The notes under the pieces: generated by a model
What the model was told of the DNA's origin: nothing
Seen by the model: only the letters and a program-made list of their open reading frames with translations
Databases searched by the model: none
Shown: positions 54,681-62,659 of the stretch, piece after piece
How the letters are laid out: every line of letters begins with the position of its first letter
How positions within the stretch are numbered: the first letter of the stretch is position 1
Sequence record: PZ445447.1
Source of the DNA: a phage
DNA: 64,000 nucleotides
Reading direction: 5' to 3' (one strand)
Program-made: the position numbers and the translations under genes

Positions 54681-55442
54681 TTAAAGTTCCATAAAGTTTT
54701 CTACGGTCTCAATGAATGTTTTATCAGAGAAAGCGTCAACCGCCCCGTTAAACCAAACCGGGATGCCGCGATCCTCGTACTGGTAAATATCACTACGTGA
54801 AATGCCATTCTCCTCTAGATGCTGTGAGTCGTATTTGTTAACGATCAGCAGTTTGGTGCCCTTATTGCAGGCAGGGAATAGCTCCCAGTTAAAATTGATA
54901 ACTGTGTTGGAACACCCTACAAGGATAACCATATCATTGCTTGTAAGAGAAGTCAACAGGTCATACATGTCTGTATACTTCGGAGCTACTTCTCCGAAGA
55001 ACACCACATTAGGTTTAACCCAGGTATACTTTCCTGCATCTACCTCAGAGTATCCAATGTCCTTAATGACGTCACTTCCTTCATCGTCCTCATAGACTAT
55101 TTCTGGCAAATACCCGTGAACATGTAAAATATCTTCATGTTTTACACCAGCACGCTCCAGCAAATCATCTACATTGGTGGTAAGGTTGATCACACGACCA
55201 GACCAGCGGGAATACCACTCAGCGATCCGAAGATGTGCAAGGTTAGGCTCAACACCGCCTAGAGCTACACGACGTGCATTGTAAAAGTCATGCACCTTGT
55301 AGTAGTTCTTGGCAAAGGTGTGGATGTTGCACACCTCATCGATGCTGAAATTCTCCCACATTGCAGTGCTACCAGATCGGAAAGTGGGAATACCAGATTC
55401 AGCGCTCAAACCAGCACCGGAGATAATAATCAGTCGTCGCAT
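54681..55442 (-). CDS. Sir2-family NAD-dependent protein (sirtuin-like)
   Basis: NAD-binding signature ISGAGLSAESGIPTFRS, plus HG and VVFFGE; no canonical CxxC...CxxC zinc ribbon seen. Confidence 0.75.
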   Translation of the reverse strand: MRRLIIISGAGLSAESGIPTFRSGSTAMWENFSIDEVCNIHTFAKNYYKVHDFYNARRVALGGVEPNLAHLRIAEWYSRWSGRVINLTTNVDDLLERAGVKHEDILHVHGYLPEIVYEDDEGSDVIKDIGYSEVDAGKYTWVKPNVVFFGEVAPKYTDMYDLLTSLTSNDMVILVGCSNTVINFNWELFPACNKGTKLLIVNKYDSQHLEENGISRSDIYQYEDRGIPVWFNGAVDAFSDKTFIETVENFMEL

Positions 55443-55450
55443 AAGTGTCC

Positions 55451-55801
55451 TCAGTAGATGTTTTGTTTAATCTCTATTCCAAACTTTTTAAACGAGTCAG
55501 CTGCAAGCATGAATTTACGAGCCGCTGATGGGTTAGAAGTATGCACGAAAATCTTCACGTTGTCAACTACAGGGGGCTCACCAAATACAAATTTTTCCTC
55601 CAACATAGATAGGCAATCGTACCCTTCGAACAACTCTCCAAGGTCGTTGTCCATGTGCCACTCAGAAACGCGTCTGTAGAGCTTTCCCCTATCGTTAATA
55701 AAATCTATAAACTCGGAGGAATTCTTTAGCCAAATAGCGTCGGGGAGCCCATAATTTGACGGATCTCTCAAGTCATCCAGCCACACAATCAACTTCTTCA
55801 T
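55451..55801 (-). CDS. hypothetical protein
   Basis: 116 aa; coupled to the RNA ligase gene. Confidence 0.5.
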   Translation of the reverse strand: MKKLIVWLDDLRDPSNYGLPDAIWLKNSSEFIDFINDRGKLYRRVSEWHMDNDLGELFEGYDCLSMLEEKFVFGEPPVVDNVKIFVHTSNPSAARKFMLAADSFKKFGIEIKQNIY

Positions 55802-56733
55802 TGCATATAGTTCTCGTTGTGGAAATAGTAATCAAGTATCTCACGGCGTTCCTGCTCCAGGAGGCAGTTCCACACATCTTCTGTGTAATTGTTACGAATG
55901 AAGTTTACCATGCCGTAAAACTCTTCGTCAACACGTTTAAAGATATCATCATCCCAAATCTTCCAAGCTTTACCCCTCATTACGGCCTTTCGTGCCAGAT
56001 AGTATGGAGACTTGATCTTCAACTGCAGATCATAAGGGTAGTAAGGCTTACGAATCATATATCCTTCACCTCTTGTTTCTGCAGCTAACTCTTTTGCATA
56101 GCTGAACGGAATTTCACGCACAGTGTGAGGACGTTTTGCACCAAGGTATTTGGCAATCCCATCTAAAGCGGCTTCTGGTAGCATTATTCCAGAATCATTA
56201 TATCTGCAACCTATCAAATATGCGCCATGGTCTTCTTGAACAATATGCGGATCTGAAGGGTGACAAATTTCAAACATGAATGTCATGTTTTCATTGCCCA
56301 TAACCTTCTTGATAAGATCTAAATTACCACATTGCTCTTGGATGGTTTCCTTTGCAAGGTTACAATATGGAGAATCAAGAGACCCGGTTGTTGAGAACAA
56401 TAGGTCACCTTTATGAGATGATACCACACCAAGGAATCCGTTCTTTTTCTCTACCGCAGTCACAAGCTTATTGTCAGGCAGGTTGGTGGAGTTTTCTCCC
56501 AAGTTAAACACTTTTGTGAAGGGCCATGCCACAACATTTCCTTCATTACCGACAACAATGCCTCGGCACTCCAGTAATCGAGGAGACAAATGCCATAAGT
56601 TGTTGTAGAATACTTTTCTGGCATATTTATAGATCTTTAACCCAAGATCTGGGTAATATCTGCTGGTTACAAGACCTTTGTCAACTAGGTCGTCTGCATT
56701 AAAATACTTCATCATACGTTCCTCATTTGTCAT
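55798..56733 (-). CDS. RNA ligase (T4 Rnl1-like)
   Basis: WHLSPRLLECRGIVV...KVFNLGEN parallels T4 Rnl1 WLLPDALECRGIMF...KFFNLNEN; motif I VEKKNGFLGV (KxNG); FMFEICHP and LKIKSPYY blocks. Confidence 0.7.
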   Translation of the reverse strand: MTNEERMMKYFNADDLVDKGLVTSRYYPDLGLKIYKYARKVFYNNLWHLSPRLLECRGIVVGNEGNVVAWPFTKVFNLGENSTNLPDNKLVTAVEKKNGFLGVVSSHKGDLLFSTTGSLDSPYCNLAKETIQEQCGNLDLIKKVMGNENMTFMFEICHPSDPHIVQEDHGAYLIGCRYNDSGIMLPEAALDGIAKYLGAKRPHTVREIPFSYAKELAAETRGEGYMIRKPYYPYDLQLKIKSPYYLARKAVMRGKAWKIWDDDIFKRVDEEFYGMVNFIRNNYTEDVWNCLLEQERREILDYYFHNENYMQ

Positions 56734-56833
56734 TTTGTCCCTTTATCCTGCCACACAAATAACCTAGTGTCAACACTTGAAATTAACAAAACAGTTAGGT
56801 ATACTATCATCGAAATTAAAACGGAGGGTTACT

Positions 56834-57244
56834 ATGTCTAAAATGCTATATATCGTGCGTGGTCTACCAGGGTCTGGCAAATCAACACTGGCAAATGCGC
56901 TATCTTTAGAAGGTCTGTATCCACATTTTGAGAACGACATGTTCTGGTACGACGATGATGGAAATTACAACTGGGATGCAAGTAAAGTAACACTTGCAGC
57001 AAAATGGTGCAAAGATAACGTAGAAGATATGATGCGTATGGGATACGACCGTATCGTGGTAAGTAATACATTTACAAAAGAAAAATATGTGCAAGAATAT
57101 ATTGACATGGCGATCAGTCATGGGTATAGTTATACCGTAATCGTGGTTGAAAACCGCCATGGTAGTAAAAGCATTCATGATGTTCCAGACAGGGTTGTGG
57201 ATCGTATGGAACGCCAGCTTAAAAACTGCATTAAACTTAAATGA
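56834..57244 (+). CDS. P-loop kinase (polynucleotide kinase-like)
   Basis: ATG 56834 after acggagggtt RBS; Walker A VRGLPGSGKSTLA; 136 aa. Confidence 0.6.
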   Translation: MSKMLYIVRGLPGSGKSTLANALSLEGLYPHFENDMFWYDDDGNYNWDASKVTLAAKWCKDNVEDMMRMGYDRIVVSNTFTKEKYVQEYIDMAISHGYSYTVIVVENRHGSKSIHDVPDRVVDRMERQLKNCIKLK

Positions 57245-57251
57245 GGAATGT

Positions 57252-57806
57252 ATGAAATACTTTGTAACAAGCGACACACACTTTCTCCACCAGCGGGTCA
57301 TGGAGTTTGACTCATGTCAAAAACACAGATCTCAGTATGATCACAATCTTGACAGTATGAATGCGGGGATCATCACCAAGTGGAACTCTGTTGTGTCACC
57401 TGCAGACACTGTGTTTCACTTAGGAGATATTGCGTGCACTAATGATAAGAATATTAACAAATTGCTCCCAGATGTTCTAAATATGTTGAACGGACATATT
57501 ATTCTTGTTCGTGGTAACCATGACACAAGGACGACTGTCAGAATTATGAAAGAGTTCGGTCATGAGGTTGTAGATTATTACGAGCTTCGCCACAACAAGA
57601 ATTTGATCTGTATGAGCCATTACCAGTTTGCAAAGTGGAACAGAAAGCCTCACGGATCAGTCCAACTGTTCGGTCATGCTCACGGAACCACACAACAGTT
57701 GTTTGGCAGACAGTTTGATGTCGGTTGGGATGTGTGGGGGAGACTCTTACCATTAGAAGAGGCATACCGTATTGCAATGAGTTTTGCTATTGACAGCGGG
57801 GAGTAA
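57252..57806 (+). CDS. calcineurin-like metallophosphoesterase
   Basis: metallophosphatase motifs SDTHF, GDIA, GNHD, GHAH; 8 nt after the kinase gene. Confidence 0.7.
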   Translation: MKYFVTSDTHFLHQRVMEFDSCQKHRSQYDHNLDSMNAGIITKWNSVVSPADTVFHLGDIACTNDKNINKLLPDVLNMLNGHIILVRGNHDTRTTVRIMKEFGHEVVDYYELRHNKNLICMSHYQFAKWNRKPHGSVQLFGHAHGTTQQLFGRQFDVGWDVWGRLLPLEEAYRIAMSFAIDSGE

Positions 57807-57853
57807 TCCCTGCTATTTTAAAGAAAATTGCCACACAAGGAGAATCAGGAGAT

Positions 57854-58204
57854 ATGAAAGATGGGGATAAGCTGCTATATCTTAAAGTCCCCCTTGAAAT
57901 ACTATCTATGTCAAAAGTTTTGAATGACACAACTGGGGAGGTTGTTGTTCTTGACTTGTATGACAAGATCGTATACTGCTACCTGCACAACTGGTATAAG
58001 CTTGGAGGAAGTTCACGCTTCACACCCAGCACAAGGAAAATTGCAGCAGATGTTGGAATAAAGAAAACAAAAGCAGCAGCGTGCGTTAAAACTTTAGAAT
58101 GTGCGGGAGTGGTTGAAATATCCACACAAGGGAGAGGTAAAAGATGCACATTTTCCAAAGTTTTGCCACCAGAAGAAGTTATTCGAATGTCAACAACTGG
58201 TTAG
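57854..58204 (+). CDS. putative helix-turn-helix DNA-binding protein
   Basis: HTH-like RKIAADVGIKKTKAAACVKTLECAGVVEI; followed by the palindromic repeat array. Confidence 0.5.
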   Translation: MKDGDKLLYLKVPLEILSMSKVLNDTTGEVVVLDLYDKIVYCYLHNWYKLGGSSRFTPSTRKIAADVGIKKTKAAACVKTLECAGVVEISTQGRGKRCTFSKVLPPEEVIRMSTTG

Positions 58205-58276
58205 ACCAGTAAAAACTTAAATATCTGTACTATAAGGATTCGTATGTTTTATGTTCGCTCTGGAACAGAGGTTAGT

Positions 58277-58361
58277 AACTGTCCGTGATACGGACACTAC
58301 TGTCCGTCACGCGGACACATCTGCCCGTAATACGGACACTAACTGTCCGTGATACGGACAC
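58277..58361. repeat. four tandem 21-bp palindromic repeats
   Basis: units taactgtccgtgatacggacac / tactgtccgtcacgcggacac / atctgcccgtaatacggacac / taactgtccgtgatacggacac, each with inverted half-sites gtccg...cggac. Confidence 0.65.
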
Positions 58362-58489
58362 ATAAAGAATATAACTAAAATAACTAAATAATAAAAAATA
58401 AAAGATCTAGTACTTATGGTACTAAGTACATATACTTAACTTATGTAGAATATACTAGATCCTAAGTACCATGTTTTAAATTTATTACT

Positions 58490-58760
58490 TACTATGGGCA
58501 GTGTCGGCCCTTCATTGGCACTCGCCTACGAGGGGCGAGATGCCGGGCCTCCTTGGTGTACACAATAACAGAAGTGCATACATGCAGGTCTGTTAACATG
58601 TGTGGGAGCGAAGCGATAGCGCAGGCCAAAGGCCGAGCACTGATGTGGACCACCGACGAAAGCTTGCCAGCGCCGTAAGGAGTCGGTTGAGAGTCTCCCG
58701 CGCGAGCTTGGATGAAGTTTATGTGTGGAAACTGACAAGAAGGTCCCTAAATCGCTCCAC
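58490..58760. other. GC-rich structured non-coding island (candidate ncRNA)
   Basis: GC content well above flanks, several local inverted repeats, no credible ORF. Confidence 0.3.
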
Positions 58761-58864
58761 AGCCATATAAACTATACCAAGTAAGGCAATCGCACCAGTT
58801 TGATAGAAAAGCTCGTTACAAAGCGATACAGTGAGTTTTTCTATAACTTGAAGAGGAGGCAGCT

Positions 58865-59443
58865 ATGAGTCCACGCAAAGATGACCGTGAAAAGATTGCA
58901 AAACGTTATCAGAATGAAGAACAGATGGAGAAAACTTTCAAGTGGAAGCCAGGTTTCCAGCGTAATCATTCTAACGCTCGTGATCGTAAGCATCCGGATA
59001 AGTGGTTAACACCGCCAAATGATGGCATGCAGGTTGGGGATGAGAAGGAGCTGTCACCTGGAAAAGATGGCAACTACATTCGCACTAAGGAAGCAGGTCC
59101 AAAGGATGACAGCTATCTTGTAGATAAGGTTCTTGATGGTATTGATGTAGATGTTGACACTGCACGAAACCTTTTTCTTGGTTGGTATCGTACAGGGTTT
59201 TTCGACATCAAGGCTATTCGTCGTGTTTGTGATATTAAAAAGTCTGCATATGATGATGACTCTCTACATCGCACTCTGAGACAATACTCAGAGAGATACG
59301 GTCATCCAGTTATCACTCTTGACGATATTAACGAAGTGATGTATCATGCAGAGGTTGTTGCAGGTAGATTCGGTGATGCATATCTCGGTATTCTTTCTGC
59401 AAAAGATGAGGTAATGTTAAATAAAATTTACTATGAACGCTGA
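58865..59443 (+). CDS. hypothetical protein
   Basis: 192 aa; gaagaggaggcagct RBS. Confidence 0.55.
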   Translation: MSPRKDDREKIAKRYQNEEQMEKTFKWKPGFQRNHSNARDRKHPDKWLTPPNDGMQVGDEKELSPGKDGNYIRTKEAGPKDDSYLVDKVLDGIDVDVDTARNLFLGWYRTGFFDIKAIRRVCDIKKSAYDDDSLHRTLRQYSERYGHPVITLDDINEVMYHAEVVAGRFGDAYLGILSAKDEVMLNKIYYER

Positions 59444-59453
59444 GGAGCGCTTA

Positions 59454-59642
59454 ATGAACAACCCGGTAGCAAAGAACTGTAATAAGTTCAACAAGTCTGC
59501 AATTCACACTGACAGGAAAAAGAGCTGGTCTCCTGACATTGACGAGGAGCTTGAGAGTTACTTTGAAGACCTGGTCACTAATGCAGATGAGGTTGCGATT
59601 AAAGAATACGCAGACAGGAAGGATAAGGCCGGAATCTGTTGA
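59454..59642 (+). CDS. hypothetical protein
   Basis: ATG 59454 after GAGGAG RBS. Confidence 0.4.
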   Translation: MNNPVAKNCNKFNKSAIHTDRKKSWSPDIDEELESYFEDLVTNADEVAIKEYADRKDKAGIC

Positions 59643-59718
59643 CAAAAATAGTGTTACCTGATAAGATCTGCAATATGATGTGATGCAATTTTAACTTACG
59701 AGGTCTACAGGTAATGCT

Positions 59719-59961
59719 ATGTTTAAGGTTAAGCTCGTTTTTCGTTCCATGAATGAGGATTATTTAGAAGATGAAGGTGAATTTCGTGCACTGGATGATG
59801 CAATAGATTTTGCCAACGACTTAGCTTGTATGAATACAGGTTATGGGCTATGTTGTTGGGATGGTGGTGTTCAGATCGGTGATAGCAAGATCTTCTACTT
59901 CTACCCTGAGCCTGATAACAAACAAATTAAGTATGTTTTATTTATTTGTGCTTTACAATGA
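59719..59961 (+). CDS. hypothetical protein
   Basis: 80 aa; cgaggtctacaggtaatgct upstream; promoter-like TTGACA at 59640. Confidence 0.5.
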   Translation: MFKVKLVFRSMNEDYLEDEGEFRALDDAIDFANDLACMNTGYGLCCWDGGVQIGDSKIFYFYPEPDNKQIKYVLFICALQ

Positions 59962-60039
59962 GGTTGTTTTCGTGTATCATGATGAATATCCAATTTAAAG
60001 ATGAATTTGATGGCTTTATCTCTGGATGCTTTGAAACAG

Positions 60040-60250
60040 GGTTCGGAGAAGACTGAGTTCCCCTTAGAGGGCTTGATAGTGCACCACACTTAAAATGGTA
60101 GGGGCAGCCAGCACATGACGATGTGACCCCAGCCAACCTGTAACAAGGTCGAGCCGAAGCGCGGGTAATAGGCCTCTGGTAACCCACTTGTTGGGTCTTG
60201 CTGGCCCAGGACGCTGGACAAGTCGCAGGGAATACCACCCTGCGGCGAAC
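60040..60250. other. GC-rich structured non-coding island (candidate ncRNA)
   Basis: GC-rich with multiple inverted repeats between two plus-strand genes; the only ORF here is a low-complexity antisense one. Confidence 0.3.
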
Positions 60251-60279
60251 TTGACAATCAGTATTTGCTATGATAAAAT
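60251..60279 (+). promoter_or_regulatory. sigma70-type promoter
   Basis: TTGACA (60251) - 17 nt - TAAAAT. Confidence 0.5.
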
Positions 60280-60307
60280 CCACCTATCACGTGATAATGG
60301 AGGAAAC

Positions 60308-60646
60308 ATGGCGGATACAACTAAAAAGCGTCGCCGTAGAGGCAGACCTCTGAAAGAGGAGTCCAACGCCATTCAGCTAGAGAAGAACATCCTTGATATG
60401 AAGGAATCTTTTATAGCGATGGTTCCAGAAGCTCACAAAGTTTTAAGAGAGCTGATGTTGGACCCGAAAACCAAACAAAATATTCGTCAAAGCATTGCAG
60501 AGTATGTTCTTGATAAGGCAGACCGAATGCAGGAAGAATATGATGAGATGTTTGGTGAAGAGGAAGAGGTGGTAGTGGAAGAGGCTGAAAAACCAGCACC
60601 TTTTATGCCATTTACTACAGAAATACAGCCTGTTAGCAATAGCTAA
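60308..60646 (+). CDS. hypothetical protein with basic AT-hook-like N-terminus
   Basis: ATG 60308 after ggaggaaac RBS; KKRRRRGRPLKE then acidic C-terminus. Confidence 0.5.
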   Translation: MADTTKKRRRRGRPLKEESNAIQLEKNILDMKESFIAMVPEAHKVLRELMLDPKTKQNIRQSIAEYVLDKADRMQEEYDEMFGEEEEVVVEEAEKPAPFMPFTTEIQPVSNS

Positions 60647-60655
60647 AATATTTTC

Positions 60656-60684
60656 TTGACAAACTTTGCTTAACAGTGTAATAT
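60656..60684 (+). promoter_or_regulatory. sigma70-type promoter upstream of tRNA cluster
   Basis: TTGACA (60656) - 17 nt - TAATAT (60679). Confidence 0.55.
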
Positions 60685-60742
60685 TGTAAACATGGTCTCC
60701 CACCTTTTCTGGCGGCTAAGGTGTAAAAGAAAGCCACCCAGT

Positions 60743-60817
60743 GCCCTGTTAGCTTAGTGGATAAAGCAGCGGCCTTCTAAGCCGTTGACACTGGTTCGAG
60801 TCCAGTACGGGGTGCCA
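60743..60817 (+). tRNA. tRNA-Arg (anticodon TCT)
   Basis: manual cloverleaf: acceptor gccctgt/acggggt, D-stem gctt/aagc, anticodon loop cttctaa, T-arm actgg-ttcgagt-ccagt, encoded CCA. Confidence 0.8.
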
Positions 60818-60821
60818 AATT

Positions 60822-60908
60822 GGGGAGTTATCCCGTAGAGGTAGCGGTGTAGACTGTAAATCTATTGTCATTGCGACTCGGGTGGTTCGACTCCACCACT
60901 CCCCACCA
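60822..60908 (+). tRNA. tRNA-Tyr (anticodon GTA), type II
   Basis: acceptor ggggagt/actcccc, anticodon loop ctgtaaa, long variable arm, T-arm ggtgg-ttcgact-ccacc, encoded CCA. Confidence 0.75.
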
Positions 60909-61022
60909 AATTTATATTTTTAGATGCATAAATAATACAGATAATGGCATTGATATTTATCGTCGTTTATACTAGTCACTAACTGCTCGAAAATCAGTGT
61001 CATTATCAGTATAATTTATAAA

Positions 61023-61113
61023 GGAGGGTAGGGAGCAATGGTGCTCAAGCGGTCTTGAAAACCGTCCCGTTGAGGATGACTCGATGATGGTTCGATTCCA
61101 TTACTCTCCGCCA
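61023..61113 (+). tRNA. tRNA-Ser (anticodon TGA), type II
   Basis: acceptor ggagggt/actctcc, anticodon arm gcggt-cttgaaa-accgt, long variable arm, T-loop ttcgatt, encoded CCA. Confidence 0.75.
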
Positions 61114-61211
61114 CATTGTTGACCTTGTAATTAAGCGAAAGCCGGAAGCAGAACCGGATTATCAAATGTTACAGTCGTCATCGCCGACTAGCAACATGGT
61201 CAACATACTGA

Positions 61212-61310
61212 GCTAGGTAAGCCCTTTGGCAAGGGCGAGGATTTTTAATCCTGAAAATAGACGAGGTAGTCGTTGAATACATAGGTGGTTCGATTCCATC
61301 ACCTAGCACC
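61212..61310 (+). tRNA. atypical tRNA-like gene (anticodon ambiguous, TTT if 7-nt loop)
   Basis: acceptor gctaggt/acctagc, D-arm gccc-tttggcaa-gggc and T-arm ggtgg-ttcgatt-ccatc are canonical, but anticodon stem is imperfect and 29 nt lie between anticodon arm and T-arm; 99 nt total. Confidence 0.4.
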
Positions 61311-61315
61311 TTTTT

Positions 61316-61391
61316 GCTGATGTAGCACAATCGGTAGTGCAATTGATTTGTAATCAATAGGTTGTAGGTTCAAGTCCTGCCATCAGCACCA
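61316..61391 (+). tRNA. tRNA-Thr (anticodon TGT)
   Basis: acceptor gctgatg/catcagc, D-stem gcac/gtgc, anticodon arm attga-tttgtaa-tcaat, T-loop ttcaagt, encoded CCA. Confidence 0.8.
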
Positions 61392-61392
61392 A

Positions 61393-61467
61393 GGCCCTGT
61401 AGCTGGAAGGTTCAAGCAAGCGACTCATAATCGCCAGACGGTGGTTCAATTCCACCCAGGGCCACCA
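61393..61467 (+). tRNA. tRNA with CAT anticodon (Met or lysidine-type Ile)
   Basis: acceptor ggccctg/cagggcc, anticodon loop ctcataa, T-arm ggtgg-ttcaatt-ccacc, encoded CCA; 3-bp D-stem and A.C at top of anticodon stem. Confidence 0.65.
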
Positions 61468-61478
61468 AATAGTAAATA

Positions 61479-61555
61479 CTCCGCGTAGCTCAGCTTGGTA
61501 GAGCGCCTGATTTGGGATCAGGAGGTCGAGTGTTCGAATCACTCCGTGGAGACCA
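61479..61555 (+). tRNA. tRNA-Pro (anticodon TGG)
   Basis: acceptor ctccgcg/cgtggag, D-arm gctc-agcttggta-gagc, anticodon arm cctga-tttggga-tcagg, T-loop ttcgaat, encoded CCA. Confidence 0.8.
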
Positions 61556-62375: not shown

Positions 62376-62659
62376 GAGTTGCTACACTGTTTATTGTGTG
62401 CTTGTTATTATGTGGGTGTGCAACCAGCGTTGAGAGAGAATACAAGATTGACCCTCCTGATGTAGGAAGGTTGATTGTTAAACCCCCGGAAGGTGCCATG
62501 AAACCACCTGCTAAAGCTATGCCTTTGAAGAAAGGTGCGCCAGATGCAGTGAATTCTGGCATTATGAGGGATAATAATCTGTCTTGTAGCAATGATAGAG
62601 CTAAATTGATCATTTTGCAAGACTATATTAGAACACTTTTTCCAAAGGAGAGAGGTTAA
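62372..62659 (+). CDS. putative o-spanin (Rz1-like lipoprotein)
   Basis: signal peptide with Cys cluster (FIVCLLLCGCATS) and proline-rich mature region (DPPDVGRLIVKPPEGAMKPPAKAMP); lipobox non-canonical. Confidence 0.5.
   Translation: MRVATLFIVCLLLCGCATSVEREYKIDPPDVGRLIVKPPEGAMKPPAKAMPLKKGAPDAVNSGIMRDNNLSCSNDRAKLIILQDYIRTLFPKERG

What the first reader, a model, noticed from the sequence alone, without database searches (positions are those of the whole stretch)
57854..58480. HTH protein gene followed by four tandem 21-bp palindromic sites and an AT-rich palindrome
Immediately after the stop of a putative helix-turn-helix protein (57854-58204) lie four head-to-tail 21-bp units (58277-58361), each an imperfect palindrome with half-sites gtccg...cggac, the first and fourth identical. 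They are followed by an AT-rich segment with its own inverted repeats (agtacttatggtactaagtac). A DNA-binding protein next to an array of its probable binding sites and an easily melted AT-rich region is the classic layout of an initiator with its origin, or an autoregulated operator.
Basis: partly seen in the sequence, partly recalled or inferred. Interest (0 to 1): 0.5.

Follow-up and report, generated by a model that had tools for sequence, protein, structure and literature searches.

The report
Probable replication origin of rV5-like phages
A small DNA-binding protein gene followed by four palindromic repeats and the most easily melted stretch of the region is most likely the so far unmapped replication origin of the rV5-like E. 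coli phages, built like the phage lambda origin but with a stripped-down initiator.

Summary
The window is Escherichia phage MaxBurger, an rV5-like Vequintavirus. A 116-aa winged-helix ORF (57854-58204) is followed, after 72 nt, by four 21/22-bp units with the core TGTCCG-N5-CGGACA. This is the only tandem array in 64 kb. Next comes a 130-bp tract of 81% A+T, the least stable stretch of the window.

Three results favour an initiator plus origin:
- Arrays of the same GTCCG-N5-CGGAC core, spaced 21-23 bp, occur in at least 120 viral contigs. In 75 of 76 contigs with a nearby HTH_36 "O-like" gene the array lies inside that gene, just after the winged-helix domain, and is followed by an A-rich tract. 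This is the lambda-origin layout.
- Across 13 diverged Vequintavirus genomes the array and the AT tract vary 4-8 times less than third codon positions.

It differs from lambda: the protein is only the DNA-binding domain, and the iterons lie outside the gene. Nothing has been tested by experiment, and an added operator or roadblock role is not excluded. I rate it a new variant of a known kind, of moderate interest.

The parts
57790..57819 (+). Sigma-70-like promoter (TTGACA, 18 nt, TATTTT, with TG) upstream of the winged-helix gene. Transcripts from it would run through the array and the AT tract.
   Evidence: The same position is annotated as promoter P76 in the rV5 record. No terminator-like site lies between it and 58865.
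57854..58204 (+). Gene for a 116-aa single-domain winged-helix protein (rV5 gp075 homologue, Bas54_0212), the putative origin-binding initiator.
   Evidence: phrog_12838; HTH_36 22.8 bits and DUF6945 24.9 bits, both below cut-off. AF2 model pLDDT 82.9. Best PDB match is 4RO3, the PLE RepA N-terminal domain.
58205..58275 (.). Fast-evolving spacer between the stop codon and the array.
   Evidence: pi = 0.112 across 13 genomes, higher than third codon positions.
58276..58361 (.). Iteron array: four 21/22-bp units, each with a 17-bp palindrome TGTCCG-N5-CGGACA (58280-58296, 58301-58317, 58322-58338, 58344-58360).
   Evidence: The half-sites are invariant in 13 genomes, and the only changes lie in the central 5 nt, in the linkers, or move towards the consensus. 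Phage navn keeps only 2 units.
58362..58403 (+). A-rich tract next to iteron 4, the proposed DNA-unwinding element. It contains ATAACTAAA twice (58371-58388) and is A-rich on the gene-sense strand.
58404..58491 (.). Second, nearly invariant part of the AT-rich region. It has short dyad symmetries, two GATC sites (58404, 58458) and the box TAAAAGATCT (58399-58408), which is shared with sister genera.
58506..58549 (.). GC-rich imperfect hairpin or palindrome directly after the AT-rich region. It is invariant in 13 genomes except for three changes at unpaired positions. Its role is unknown; a structural boundary of the origin or a single-strand initiation signal is conjecture.
58492..58790 (+). 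GC-rich conserved element of unknown nature between the AT tract and the next CDS. It is listed because it is contiguous with the origin region; whether it belongs to the origin is not shown.

Best explanation
This is most likely the replication origin of Vequintavirus (rV5-like) phages together with its initiator, built on the lambda-origin plan. The proposed mechanism is as follows. Early transcription from the promoter at 57790-57819 makes the 116-aa winged-helix protein. Dimers of it bind the four palindromes TGTCCG-N5-CGGACA. The 21-22 bp spacing equals two helical turns, so the dimers sit on one face of the helix and can form a cooperative, DNA-bending complex like the lambda O-some. That strain, probably helped by transcription running through the region, melts the adjacent A-rich tract at 58362-58403. 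The phage's own replisome then loads there: rV5 encodes a gp4/DnaB-type helicase-primase and a Pif1/RecD-type helicase. Replication proceeds in both directions, co-oriented with the diverging gene blocks. What the sequence shows directly: the layout of the locus, its uniqueness in the window, its low duplex stability and its conservation. What rests on homology: that this protein binds these sites. What is inferred: strand opening, helicase loading and bidirectional replication.
For: (2) Sites. They form arrays of 2-7 copies spaced mostly 21-23 bp. In 75 of the 76 loci with an HTH_36-like ORF nearby, the array lies inside that ORF, typically about 300-390 nt after the start codon (range 239-889). 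Here the array starts 427 nt after the ATG. Relatives of these ORFs are annotated as replication protein O or O-like and are followed by P-like loaders or DnaB helicases.
(3) Polarity. In those loci the first 40 nt beyond the array, on the side away from the gene start, are 19% richer in A+T than the locus mean and are A-rich on the sense strand. The window has the same polarity.
(4) Parallel case. An unrelated 169-kb viral contig (L071) has the same detached layout: a 120-aa ORF with a sub-threshold HTH_36 hit, then its stop codon, then three TGTCCGTTCAnCGGACA sites and a fourth near-copy (aTCCGTTCACCGGACA), then an A-rich tract starting CATAAC, then a GC hairpin.
(5) Stability. 58362-58491 is the least stable DNA in the 64 kb.
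(6) Selection. pi is 0.018 for the array and 0.0105 for the AT tract, against 0.076-0.089 at third codon positions and 0.112 in the spacer. The half-sites never vary.
(7) Position. The locus lies 1.5 kb from the divergent strand switch and the cumulative GC-skew minimum. The same switch was seen in rV5 at 66.7 kb (PMC3606486).
(8) Copy number. Phage navn is viable with two units. This fits lambda, where two iterons plus the AT tract suffice for unwinding (PMC7466680).
(9) Sister genera. Mydovirus, Seunavirus and Henunavirus keep a homologous 105-107-aa gene (38% identity over 48 aa) next to a roughly 110-bp AT-rich tract and their own, different repeats at the same strand switch.
Against: There is no experimental origin mapping for any Vequintavirus, and the rV5 paper could not define the origin. 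GC skew is confounded with transcription direction. The protein has no domain beyond the winged helix, so nothing explains helicase recruitment, and a 116-aa winged-helix protein is also the typical format of a transcription factor. Its Pfam hits are below threshold. Its recognition helix (IKKTKAAACVKTLE) is not similar to those of the O-like proteins that carry the same DNA core, so shared specificity is not demonstrated. In sister genera the two repeats lie directly upstream of the gene's ribosome-binding site, a classic autoregulation position. No DnaA or IHF consensus site is present. Large virulent phages can also rely on several origins or on recombination-dependent replication.
Confidence: 0.62

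Rival explanations
1. The protein is a transcription regulator and the four palindromes are its operator or a roadblock array. Bound protein would control read-through from its own promoter into the downstream genes (the CDS at 58865 and the tRNA cluster), or would control an unrecognised promoter in the AT-rich tract. No origin function is involved.
For: The format, a small winged-helix protein with palindromic sites, is typical of repressors, and many GenBank records call it a putative transcriptional regulator. In Henunavirus, Mydovirus and Seunavirus two palindromic or direct repeats lie directly upstream of the homologous gene. There is no terminator between the gene and 58865, so bound protein could modulate read-through.
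Against: The sites lie downstream of the gene's stop codon, and no sigma-70-like promoter exists anywhere in 58205-58865. The closest structural relative is an initiator domain. Arrays with the same core sit inside O-like initiator genes, not at promoters. This reading does not explain why the adjacent 130-bp tract is both the least stable DNA in 64 kb and almost invariant.
Confidence: 0.2
2. The palindromes act at the RNA level. They would form four 6-7-bp hairpins in the 3' untranslated region that stabilise the mRNA, serve as processing sites, or bind an RNA-binding protein.
For: The region is probably transcribed, since there is no terminator. The single strand folds well (z = -6.45). In two genomes a T-to-C change in unit 2 completes a pair.
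Against: No U-tracts follow the hairpins. The same cores occur on either coding strand inside initiator genes of many phages, at spacings that break any reading frame. The helical-repeat spacing and the extended symmetry TGTCCG/CGGACA fit binding by a dimeric DNA-binding protein. A change in unit 4 of one genome breaks the seventh pair.
Confidence: 0.05
3. The locus is a packaging (pac) site with a small terminase subunit, or a centromere-like partition site with its binding protein.
For: Small terminase subunits and centromere-binding proteins are also small DNA-binding proteins that recognise repeat arrays near their own genes (my own knowledge). The large terminase gene lies 4.3 kb downstream, at 62659.
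Against: No terminase or partition family is hit in Pfam, PHROGs or NCBIfam. No terminase or ParB/ParR-like fold appears among the top structural matches. No ParA/ParM-type gene is adjacent; the neighbouring P-loop protein is a polynucleotide-kinase-like AAA_33. The comparative set links these arrays to O-like initiators that are followed by helicase loaders.
Confidence: 0.04

Closest known systems
Phage lambda origin (ori-lambda) with O protein, and the wider set of lambdoid O-like initiators carrying an N-terminal HTH_36 domain
   Same: Both have four tandem repeats of about 20 bp, each an imperfect inverted repeat, followed on one side by an AT-rich tract that is unwound. The order along the sense strand is the same: winged-helix coding region, then iterons, then A-rich tract. 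Two iterons can suffice. (Lambda facts from PMC7466680; the O-like set.)
   Different: In lambda and in 75 of 76 O-like loci the origin lies inside the initiator gene, and the protein has a C-terminal half (in lambda it recruits P-DnaB). Here the ORF stops 72 nt before the array and the protein is the DNA-binding domain alone. There is no hit to Pfam Phage_rep_O, and no P-like loader gene is adjacent.
Vibrio cholerae PLE RepA (RepA_N-type initiator) and its origin
   Same: It is the closest solved structure and the only significant sequence match in the PDB. PLE RepA binds semi-palindromic iterons in a non-coding region. It has no helicase or primase activity of its own and depends on a lytic phage's replisome, including an SF1B helicase (PMC7145576). 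rV5 also encodes a Pif1/RecD-type helicase (PMC3606486).
   Different: PLE RepA has an additional C-terminal domain. Its iterons have longer arms that converge on a poly-A tract, and it belongs to a satellite rather than to the phage itself. There is no Pfam RepA_N hit here.
Staphylococcal multiresistance-plasmid RepA (pSK41, pTZ2162) and the DnaD N-terminal domain
   Same: The same winged-helix N-terminal fold class (4pql, 4pt7, 5kbj, 4pta, 8ojj and 2vn2). RepA_N initiators bind iterons as dimers (PMC7145576).
   Different: Sequence identity is only 13-23%. Those are two-domain proteins of Gram-positive plasmids, and the DnaD N-terminal domain does not bind DNA.
The homologous module of sister Vequintavirinae genera (4MG gp255, Mydo gp177, GAP31_179, pEp_SNUABM_01 gp227)
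   Same: A homologous 105-107-aa winged-helix gene sits at the same strand switch, next to a long AT-rich tract containing TAAAAGATCT and short tandem repeats.
   Different: Those have two repeats of a different sequence (TCAATTTGAGnnTAGGCT, 23-bp spacing), placed between the AT tract and the gene's 5' end rather than after its 3' end. The recognition helix differs (LSRATVARCV against IKKTKAAACV).

Membership tests
Lambda-type phage origin (O protein, iterons, AT tract) | Tandem array of repeats of about 19-22 bp, each with internal dyad symmetry | tested here: met
   Four units spaced 21, 21 and 22 bp, with a 17-bp palindrome core.
Lambda-type phage origin (O protein, iterons, AT tract) | Easily melted AT-rich tract directly flanking the iterons on the side away from the gene start | tested here: met
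   58362-58491 is 80.6% A+T and the least stable stretch in 64 kb. Its polarity matches that of 68 O-like arrays.
Lambda-type phage origin (O protein, iterons, AT tract) | Origin embedded in the initiator gene, between the N- and C-terminal domain coding parts | tested here: not met
   The stop codon is at 58202-58204 and the array starts at 58276. By contrast, 75 of 76 O-like loci have the array inside the ORF.
Lambda-type phage origin (O protein, iterons, AT tract) | Initiator has a C-terminal domain that recruits a helicase loader, and a P-like loader gene follows | tested here: not met
   The protein is a single 116-aa winged-helix domain. The next CDS (192 aa) has no family hit and no similarity to neighbours of O-like genes. 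Its model is unusable (pLDDT 49.6).
Lambda-type phage origin (O protein, iterons, AT tract) | Initiator binds the iterons and unwinds the AT tract | not testable with these tools
   This needs a gel shift or footprint and KMnO4 or P1 nuclease probing.
Pfam HTH_36 (PF13730) | Score at or above the gathering threshold (25 bits) | tested here: inconclusive
   22.8 bits, E 8e-5. Precomputed Pfam lists PF13730 for the 97% and 87% identical cluster representatives P0001 and P0003. A profile of the family hits array-bearing O-like ORFs at E 1e-6 to 1e-4.
Pfam DUF6945 (PF22182) | Score at or above the gathering threshold (28 bits) | tested here: not met
   24.9 bits. The Henunavirus homologue passes with 32.2 bits.
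RepA_N-type initiators (PLE RepA, pSK41 RepA) | N-terminal winged-helix fold of the RepA_N/DnaD-NTD type | tested here: met
RepA_N-type initiators (PLE RepA, pSK41 RepA) | Match to Pfam RepA_N (PF06970), and presence of a host-specific C-terminal domain | tested here: not met
   No RepA_N hit at E up to 1. The protein ends after the winged helix.
Autoregulated repressor with operator | Binding sites overlap the promoter of the regulator's own gene or of a target gene | tested here: not met
   The sites are 72-160 nt past the stop codon. The own promoter is at 57790-57819, and there is no promoter-like site in 58205-58865. Only sigma-70-type promoters were scanned.
Intrinsic terminator array | GC-rich hairpin followed by a U-tract | tested here: not met
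   No terminator-like site in 57410-60770 on the + strand. The units are followed by CTAC, CATC, CTAAC and CATAAAG.
Small terminase subunit with pac site | Homology to a small terminase subunit family or fold | tested here: not met
   No such hit in Pfam, PHROGs, NCBIfam, PDB or BFVD.

The most novel reading that the evidence does not exclude
A stand-alone 116-aa origin-binding domain, with no helicase-recruiting part, is the initiator of a 136-kb virulent myovirus. Origin recognition and melting would then be separated from replisome recruitment, which the phage's own gp4-type or Pif1-type helicases would have to accomplish directly on the opened A-rich tract. In addition, GTCCG-N5-CGGAC arrays would define an iteron class reused by very divergent winged-helix initiators in phages of hosts ranging from 29% to 74% GC.
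Probability: 0.35. Interest if true: 0.55.

Novelty: new variant of a known kind. Interest (0 to 1): 0.42.

Why it matters
rV5-like phages are among the most frequently isolated E. coli phages and are candidates for therapy, yet their origin of replication has never been located; the rV5 genome paper tried skew analysis without success. A defined origin plus initiator gives a concrete target for marker-frequency mapping, for engineering (shuttle or reporter constructs, conditionally replicating phages) and for studying how defence systems or satellites might hijack or block replication. The minimal one-domain initiator raises a testable question about how a phage replisome is loaded without a recruiting domain. 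The wide reuse of one palindrome core by divergent initiators offers a data set for studying how winged-helix domains recognise iterons.

Tried and rejected
- Rfam scans at gathering and at E-value thresholds found only tRNAs, and nothing credible in 58150-58900.
- The protein has almost no sequence relatives. There are 5 clusters in the 5.8-billion-protein index and 10 representatives with E <= 1e-3 in the exhaustive search, of which the distant ones are HTH_36 or DUF6945 proteins. One of these could not be read in context.
- An exact 21-mer from the junction of array and AT tract is absent from IMG/VR.
I did not analyse it further.
- The idea that the GC-rich element 58492-58790 is a decayed C-terminal half of an O gene was rejected. 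None of its six frames shows similarity to O-like proteins, and its substitutions show no 3-nt periodicity.
- The idea that the same element is a structured RNA is unresolved: fold z = -3.3, but essentially no covariation and several broken pairs.
- The downstream 192-aa protein has no family hit and gave an unusable model (pLDDT 49.6), so no fold search was run on it.
- No DnaA-box or IHF consensus is present, and GATC is not enriched.
- The L071 protein has no relatives among deposited phages.
- Named O-like phages that I checked (SfV, Pseudomonas phi2, Stenotrophomonas CUB19, Acinetobacter Ab31) have the same architecture but different iteron sequences.

Full report
**Identity of the window.** The region 57000-60000 is 100% identical to Escherichia phage MaxBurger (Bas54, MZ501093.1; Vequintavirus, rV5-like) and 90-99% identical to 119 other records. 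The finding's ORF is rV5 gp075. GenBank records name it "putative transcriptional regulator" and RefSeq names it "replication initiation protein". One record (phage inoa) marks the repeats as an uninterpreted repeat_region. The rV5 genome paper states that skew analysis did not define the origin; it found only orientation switches, one of them at 66.7 kb (PMC3606486). That switch corresponds to window position about 56.75 kb, 1.5 kb from the array.

**The observation.**
- The ORF 57854-58204 (116 aa) is real.
- Tandem Repeats Finder and the repeat finder both give four units of 21/22 bp at 58276-58361, with units 1 and 4 identical.
- The 17-bp core TGTCCGTnnnACGGACA occurs with at most one mismatch only at these four positions in 64 kb. 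None of 100 shuffles reaches the observed count.
- It is the only tandem array in the window.
- The array begins 72 nt after the stop codon.
- The following 130 bp (58362-58491) are 80.6% A+T. At window sizes of 60, 100 and 130 bp this is the most AT-rich and thermodynamically least stable stretch of the whole window.
- The small inverted repeats in that tract exist, but the segment folds no better than shuffled sequence (z = -1.1).

**The protein.**
- Pfam gives only sub-threshold hits: DUF6945 at 24.9 bits against a cut-off of 28, and HTH_36 at 22.8 bits against 25.
- PHROGs place it in phrog_12838 and, more weakly, in three other "replication initiation protein" families.
- It is nearly an orphan by sequence. 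The few distant hits carry HTH_36 or DUF6945 domains.
- An AlphaFold model (pLDDT 82.9) is a winged helix with an N-terminal beta-hairpin.
- 4RO3 is the N-terminal domain of the Vibrio cholerae PLE RepA protein. RepA binds semi-palindromic iterons in the PLE origin, is required for PLE replication, and relies on the replisome of phage ICP1 (PMC7145576).
- The next matches are the staphylococcal RepA_N initiators, the DnaD N-terminal domain and generic winged-helix regulators.
- Viral structural neighbours include proteins named replication protein or initiator, and DUF6945 proteins.

**The sites elsewhere.**
By my rough estimate, chance would give on the order of one hit in that collection.
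- In these contigs (GC 0.29-0.74) the palindromes form arrays of 2-7 copies. In 112 of 120 contigs the array lies inside an ORF.
- Eight of ten such ORFs tested have an N-terminal HTH_36 domain above threshold.
- With a profile built from these, 76 loci have such an ORF within 1.5 kb. In 75 of them the array is inside the ORF, typically starting about 300-390 nt after the start codon (range 239-889), just after the winged-helix domain.
- In the window the array starts 427 nt after the ATG.
- Across 68 distinct arrays the dominant spacing is 21-23 bp. The centre of the N5 spacer is A in 72% of units, and it is A in all four window units.
- The first 40 nt beyond the array, on the side away from the gene start, are 19% richer in A+T than the locus mean. 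The next 50 nt are A-rich on the sense strand (A 0.36, T 0.16) and often contain short repeats such as AGAACCNTCA.
- The window shows the same polarity (A 0.66, T 0.22; ATAACTAAA twice).
- Relatives of these ORFs in deposited phages are annotated as replication protein O or O-like and are followed by P-like loaders or DnaB helicases.
- Several of these relatives (SfV, phi2, CUB19, Ab31) carry different internal palindromic iterons in the same place.
- This is the lambda-origin plan: the origin sits in the middle of gene O, the iterons are 19-bp imperfect inverted repeats, an AT-rich tract is unwound, and two iterons plus the AT tract suffice (PMC7466680).

**A second detached example.** A 169-kb viral contig (L071, GC 0.40) encodes a 120-aa protein with a sub-threshold HTH_36 hit (21.2 bits). 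Directly after its stop codon come three TGTCCGTTCAnCGGACA sites and a fourth near-copy (aTCCGTTCACCGGACA), then the A-rich tract CATAACAATATAATATAAC..., then a GC hairpin. The protein has no pairwise similarity to the window protein. The stand-alone layout is therefore not unique to Vequintavirus, but it is rare in this set.

**Selection.**
- I aligned 13 Vequintavirus genomes chosen for divergence.
- Nucleotide diversity is 0.018 in the array and 0.0105 in the AT tract.
- It is 0.076-0.089 at third codon positions of the flanking genes and 0.112 in the 71-nt spacer.
- The TGTCCG/CGGACA arms never vary. Changes fall in the central five bases, in the linkers, or move towards the consensus: unit 3 GCCCG becomes GTCCG in EduardKellenberger, and unit 2 gains a seventh symmetric pair in two genomes.
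- Phage navn lost two units through a 43-bp deletion and remains a viable isolate.

**Sister genera.**
- Henunavirus, Mydovirus and Seunavirus carry a homologous 105-107-aa gene (38% identity over 48 aa to the window protein).
- It sits at the same divergent strand switch, next to a roughly 110-bp AT-rich tract and two 23-bp-spaced repeats of a different sequence, which lie directly upstream of the gene.
- The recognition helix differs as well, as expected for co-evolving protein and site pairs.
- The box TAAAAGATCT is invariant in those AT tracts and occurs once in the window, inside its AT tract.
- The upstream position of the repeats in these genera is also what an autoregulatory operator would look like.

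**Interpretation.** The best-supported reading is an origin of replication with its initiator. It works like a lambda or RepA_N iteron origin: dimers bind four sites that are phased two helical turns apart, and the complex strains and opens the adjacent A-rich tract. Read-through transcription may help, because there is a promoter at 57790-57819 and no terminator before 58865. It fails two defining features of lambda-type membership: the origin is outside the gene, and the protein lacks any second domain. How the helicase is loaded is therefore unknown. rV5 encodes a gp4/DnaB-type helicase-primase and a Pif1/RecD-type helicase, and PLE RepA likewise depends on a phage SF1B helicase, so direct loading on the opened tract is a reasonable inference and no more than that. 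The left-hand neighbours are nucleotide-metabolism, ligase and RNA-repair genes. The polymerase and helicase genes lie outside the window.

**Caveats.**
- Nothing here is experimental.
- GC skew coincides with gene orientation.
- The recognition helix is not conserved between the window protein and the O-like proteins that use the same DNA core. Binding is therefore inferred from adjacency and family, not from a shared recognition code.
- A regulatory role (operator or roadblock) may coexist with, or in the worst case replace, the origin role.

**Rivals considered.** An operator or roadblock (0.2), RNA hairpins (0.05), and a pac site or centromere (0.04). The reasons are given in the rival entries.

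**Unexplained neighbour.** The GC-rich 300-nt element after the AT tract begins with an invariant 44-nt hairpin (58506-58549). It is neither clearly coding nor clearly a structured RNA.

**Verdict.** It is a new variant of a known kind, of moderate interest (0.42).

Noticed in passing
window 58492-58790 (hairpin 58506-58549): A GC-rich element (far above the 42% window average) lies between the AT tract and the next CDS. Its substitutions show no 3-nt periodicity, it has no Rfam hit, and its RNA fold has z = -3.3 but almost no covariation. The first 44-nt hairpin is invariant in 13 genomes apart from three changes at unpaired positions. An 18-nt indel (58563-58580) separates two groups of genomes. 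Some records annotate it as small hypothetical CDSs (rV5 gp074).
   Followed up: partly
window 61212-61310: ARAGORN calls a 99-nt tRNA with a four-base anticodon (atcc). GenBank records call it tRNA-Lys (MaxBurger) or tRNA-OTHER (inoa), and Rfam scores it at only 35.5 bits. It may carry an intron or be an unusual or suppressor-type tRNA within the seven-tRNA cluster 60743-61555.
   Followed up: no
PLSDB record CP057073.1 (137,565 bp), homologue at 102789-103136: An E. coli 'plasmid' from cattle faeces encodes a 97% identical copy of the winged-helix protein and has the size of an rV5-like genome. It is probably a phage genome assembled and filed as a plasmid.
   Followed up: no
GenBank MG0656xx records (for example MG065654.1 and MG065666.1): Eighteen UNVERIFIED 'Campylobacter phage' records are about 98% identical to E. 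coli Vequintavirus over this region. The host label looks doubtful.
   Followed up: no
window 61976/61977: The window runs past the end of the MaxBurger record into its start (spanin-like genes, with the large terminase at 62659). It was therefore taken from a circularised or permuted representation.
   Followed up: no
window 58399-58408; L258, L259, L260 and L006 intergenic regions: TAAAAGATCT occurs once in the window, inside the AT tract. It is invariant in the AT-rich region next to the homologous gene in Mydo, 4MG, GAP31 and pEp_SNUABM_01. It may be a conserved origin box containing a Dam site. On its own, one occurrence is not significant (21 of 100 shuffles have one).
   Followed up: partly
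IMG/VR loci L008-L127 (for example L082:4317-4480, L053, L078, L120): In O-like HTH_36 initiator genes the last iteron is followed by ACTAAC-like sequence and by A-rich repeats of 10-11 nt (AGAACCNTCA). Phages with different iterons (CUB19, phi2, SfV) have these too. This looks like a conserved unwinding-element repeat of lambdoid-type origins.
   Followed up: partly
window 54681-57806: Sir2-like deacetylase, RNA ligase 1, a polynucleotide-kinase-like P-loop protein and a metallophosphoesterase flank the strand switch next to the putative origin. Together they look like an RNA (tRNA) repair set, a few kb from the tRNA cluster.
   Followed up: no
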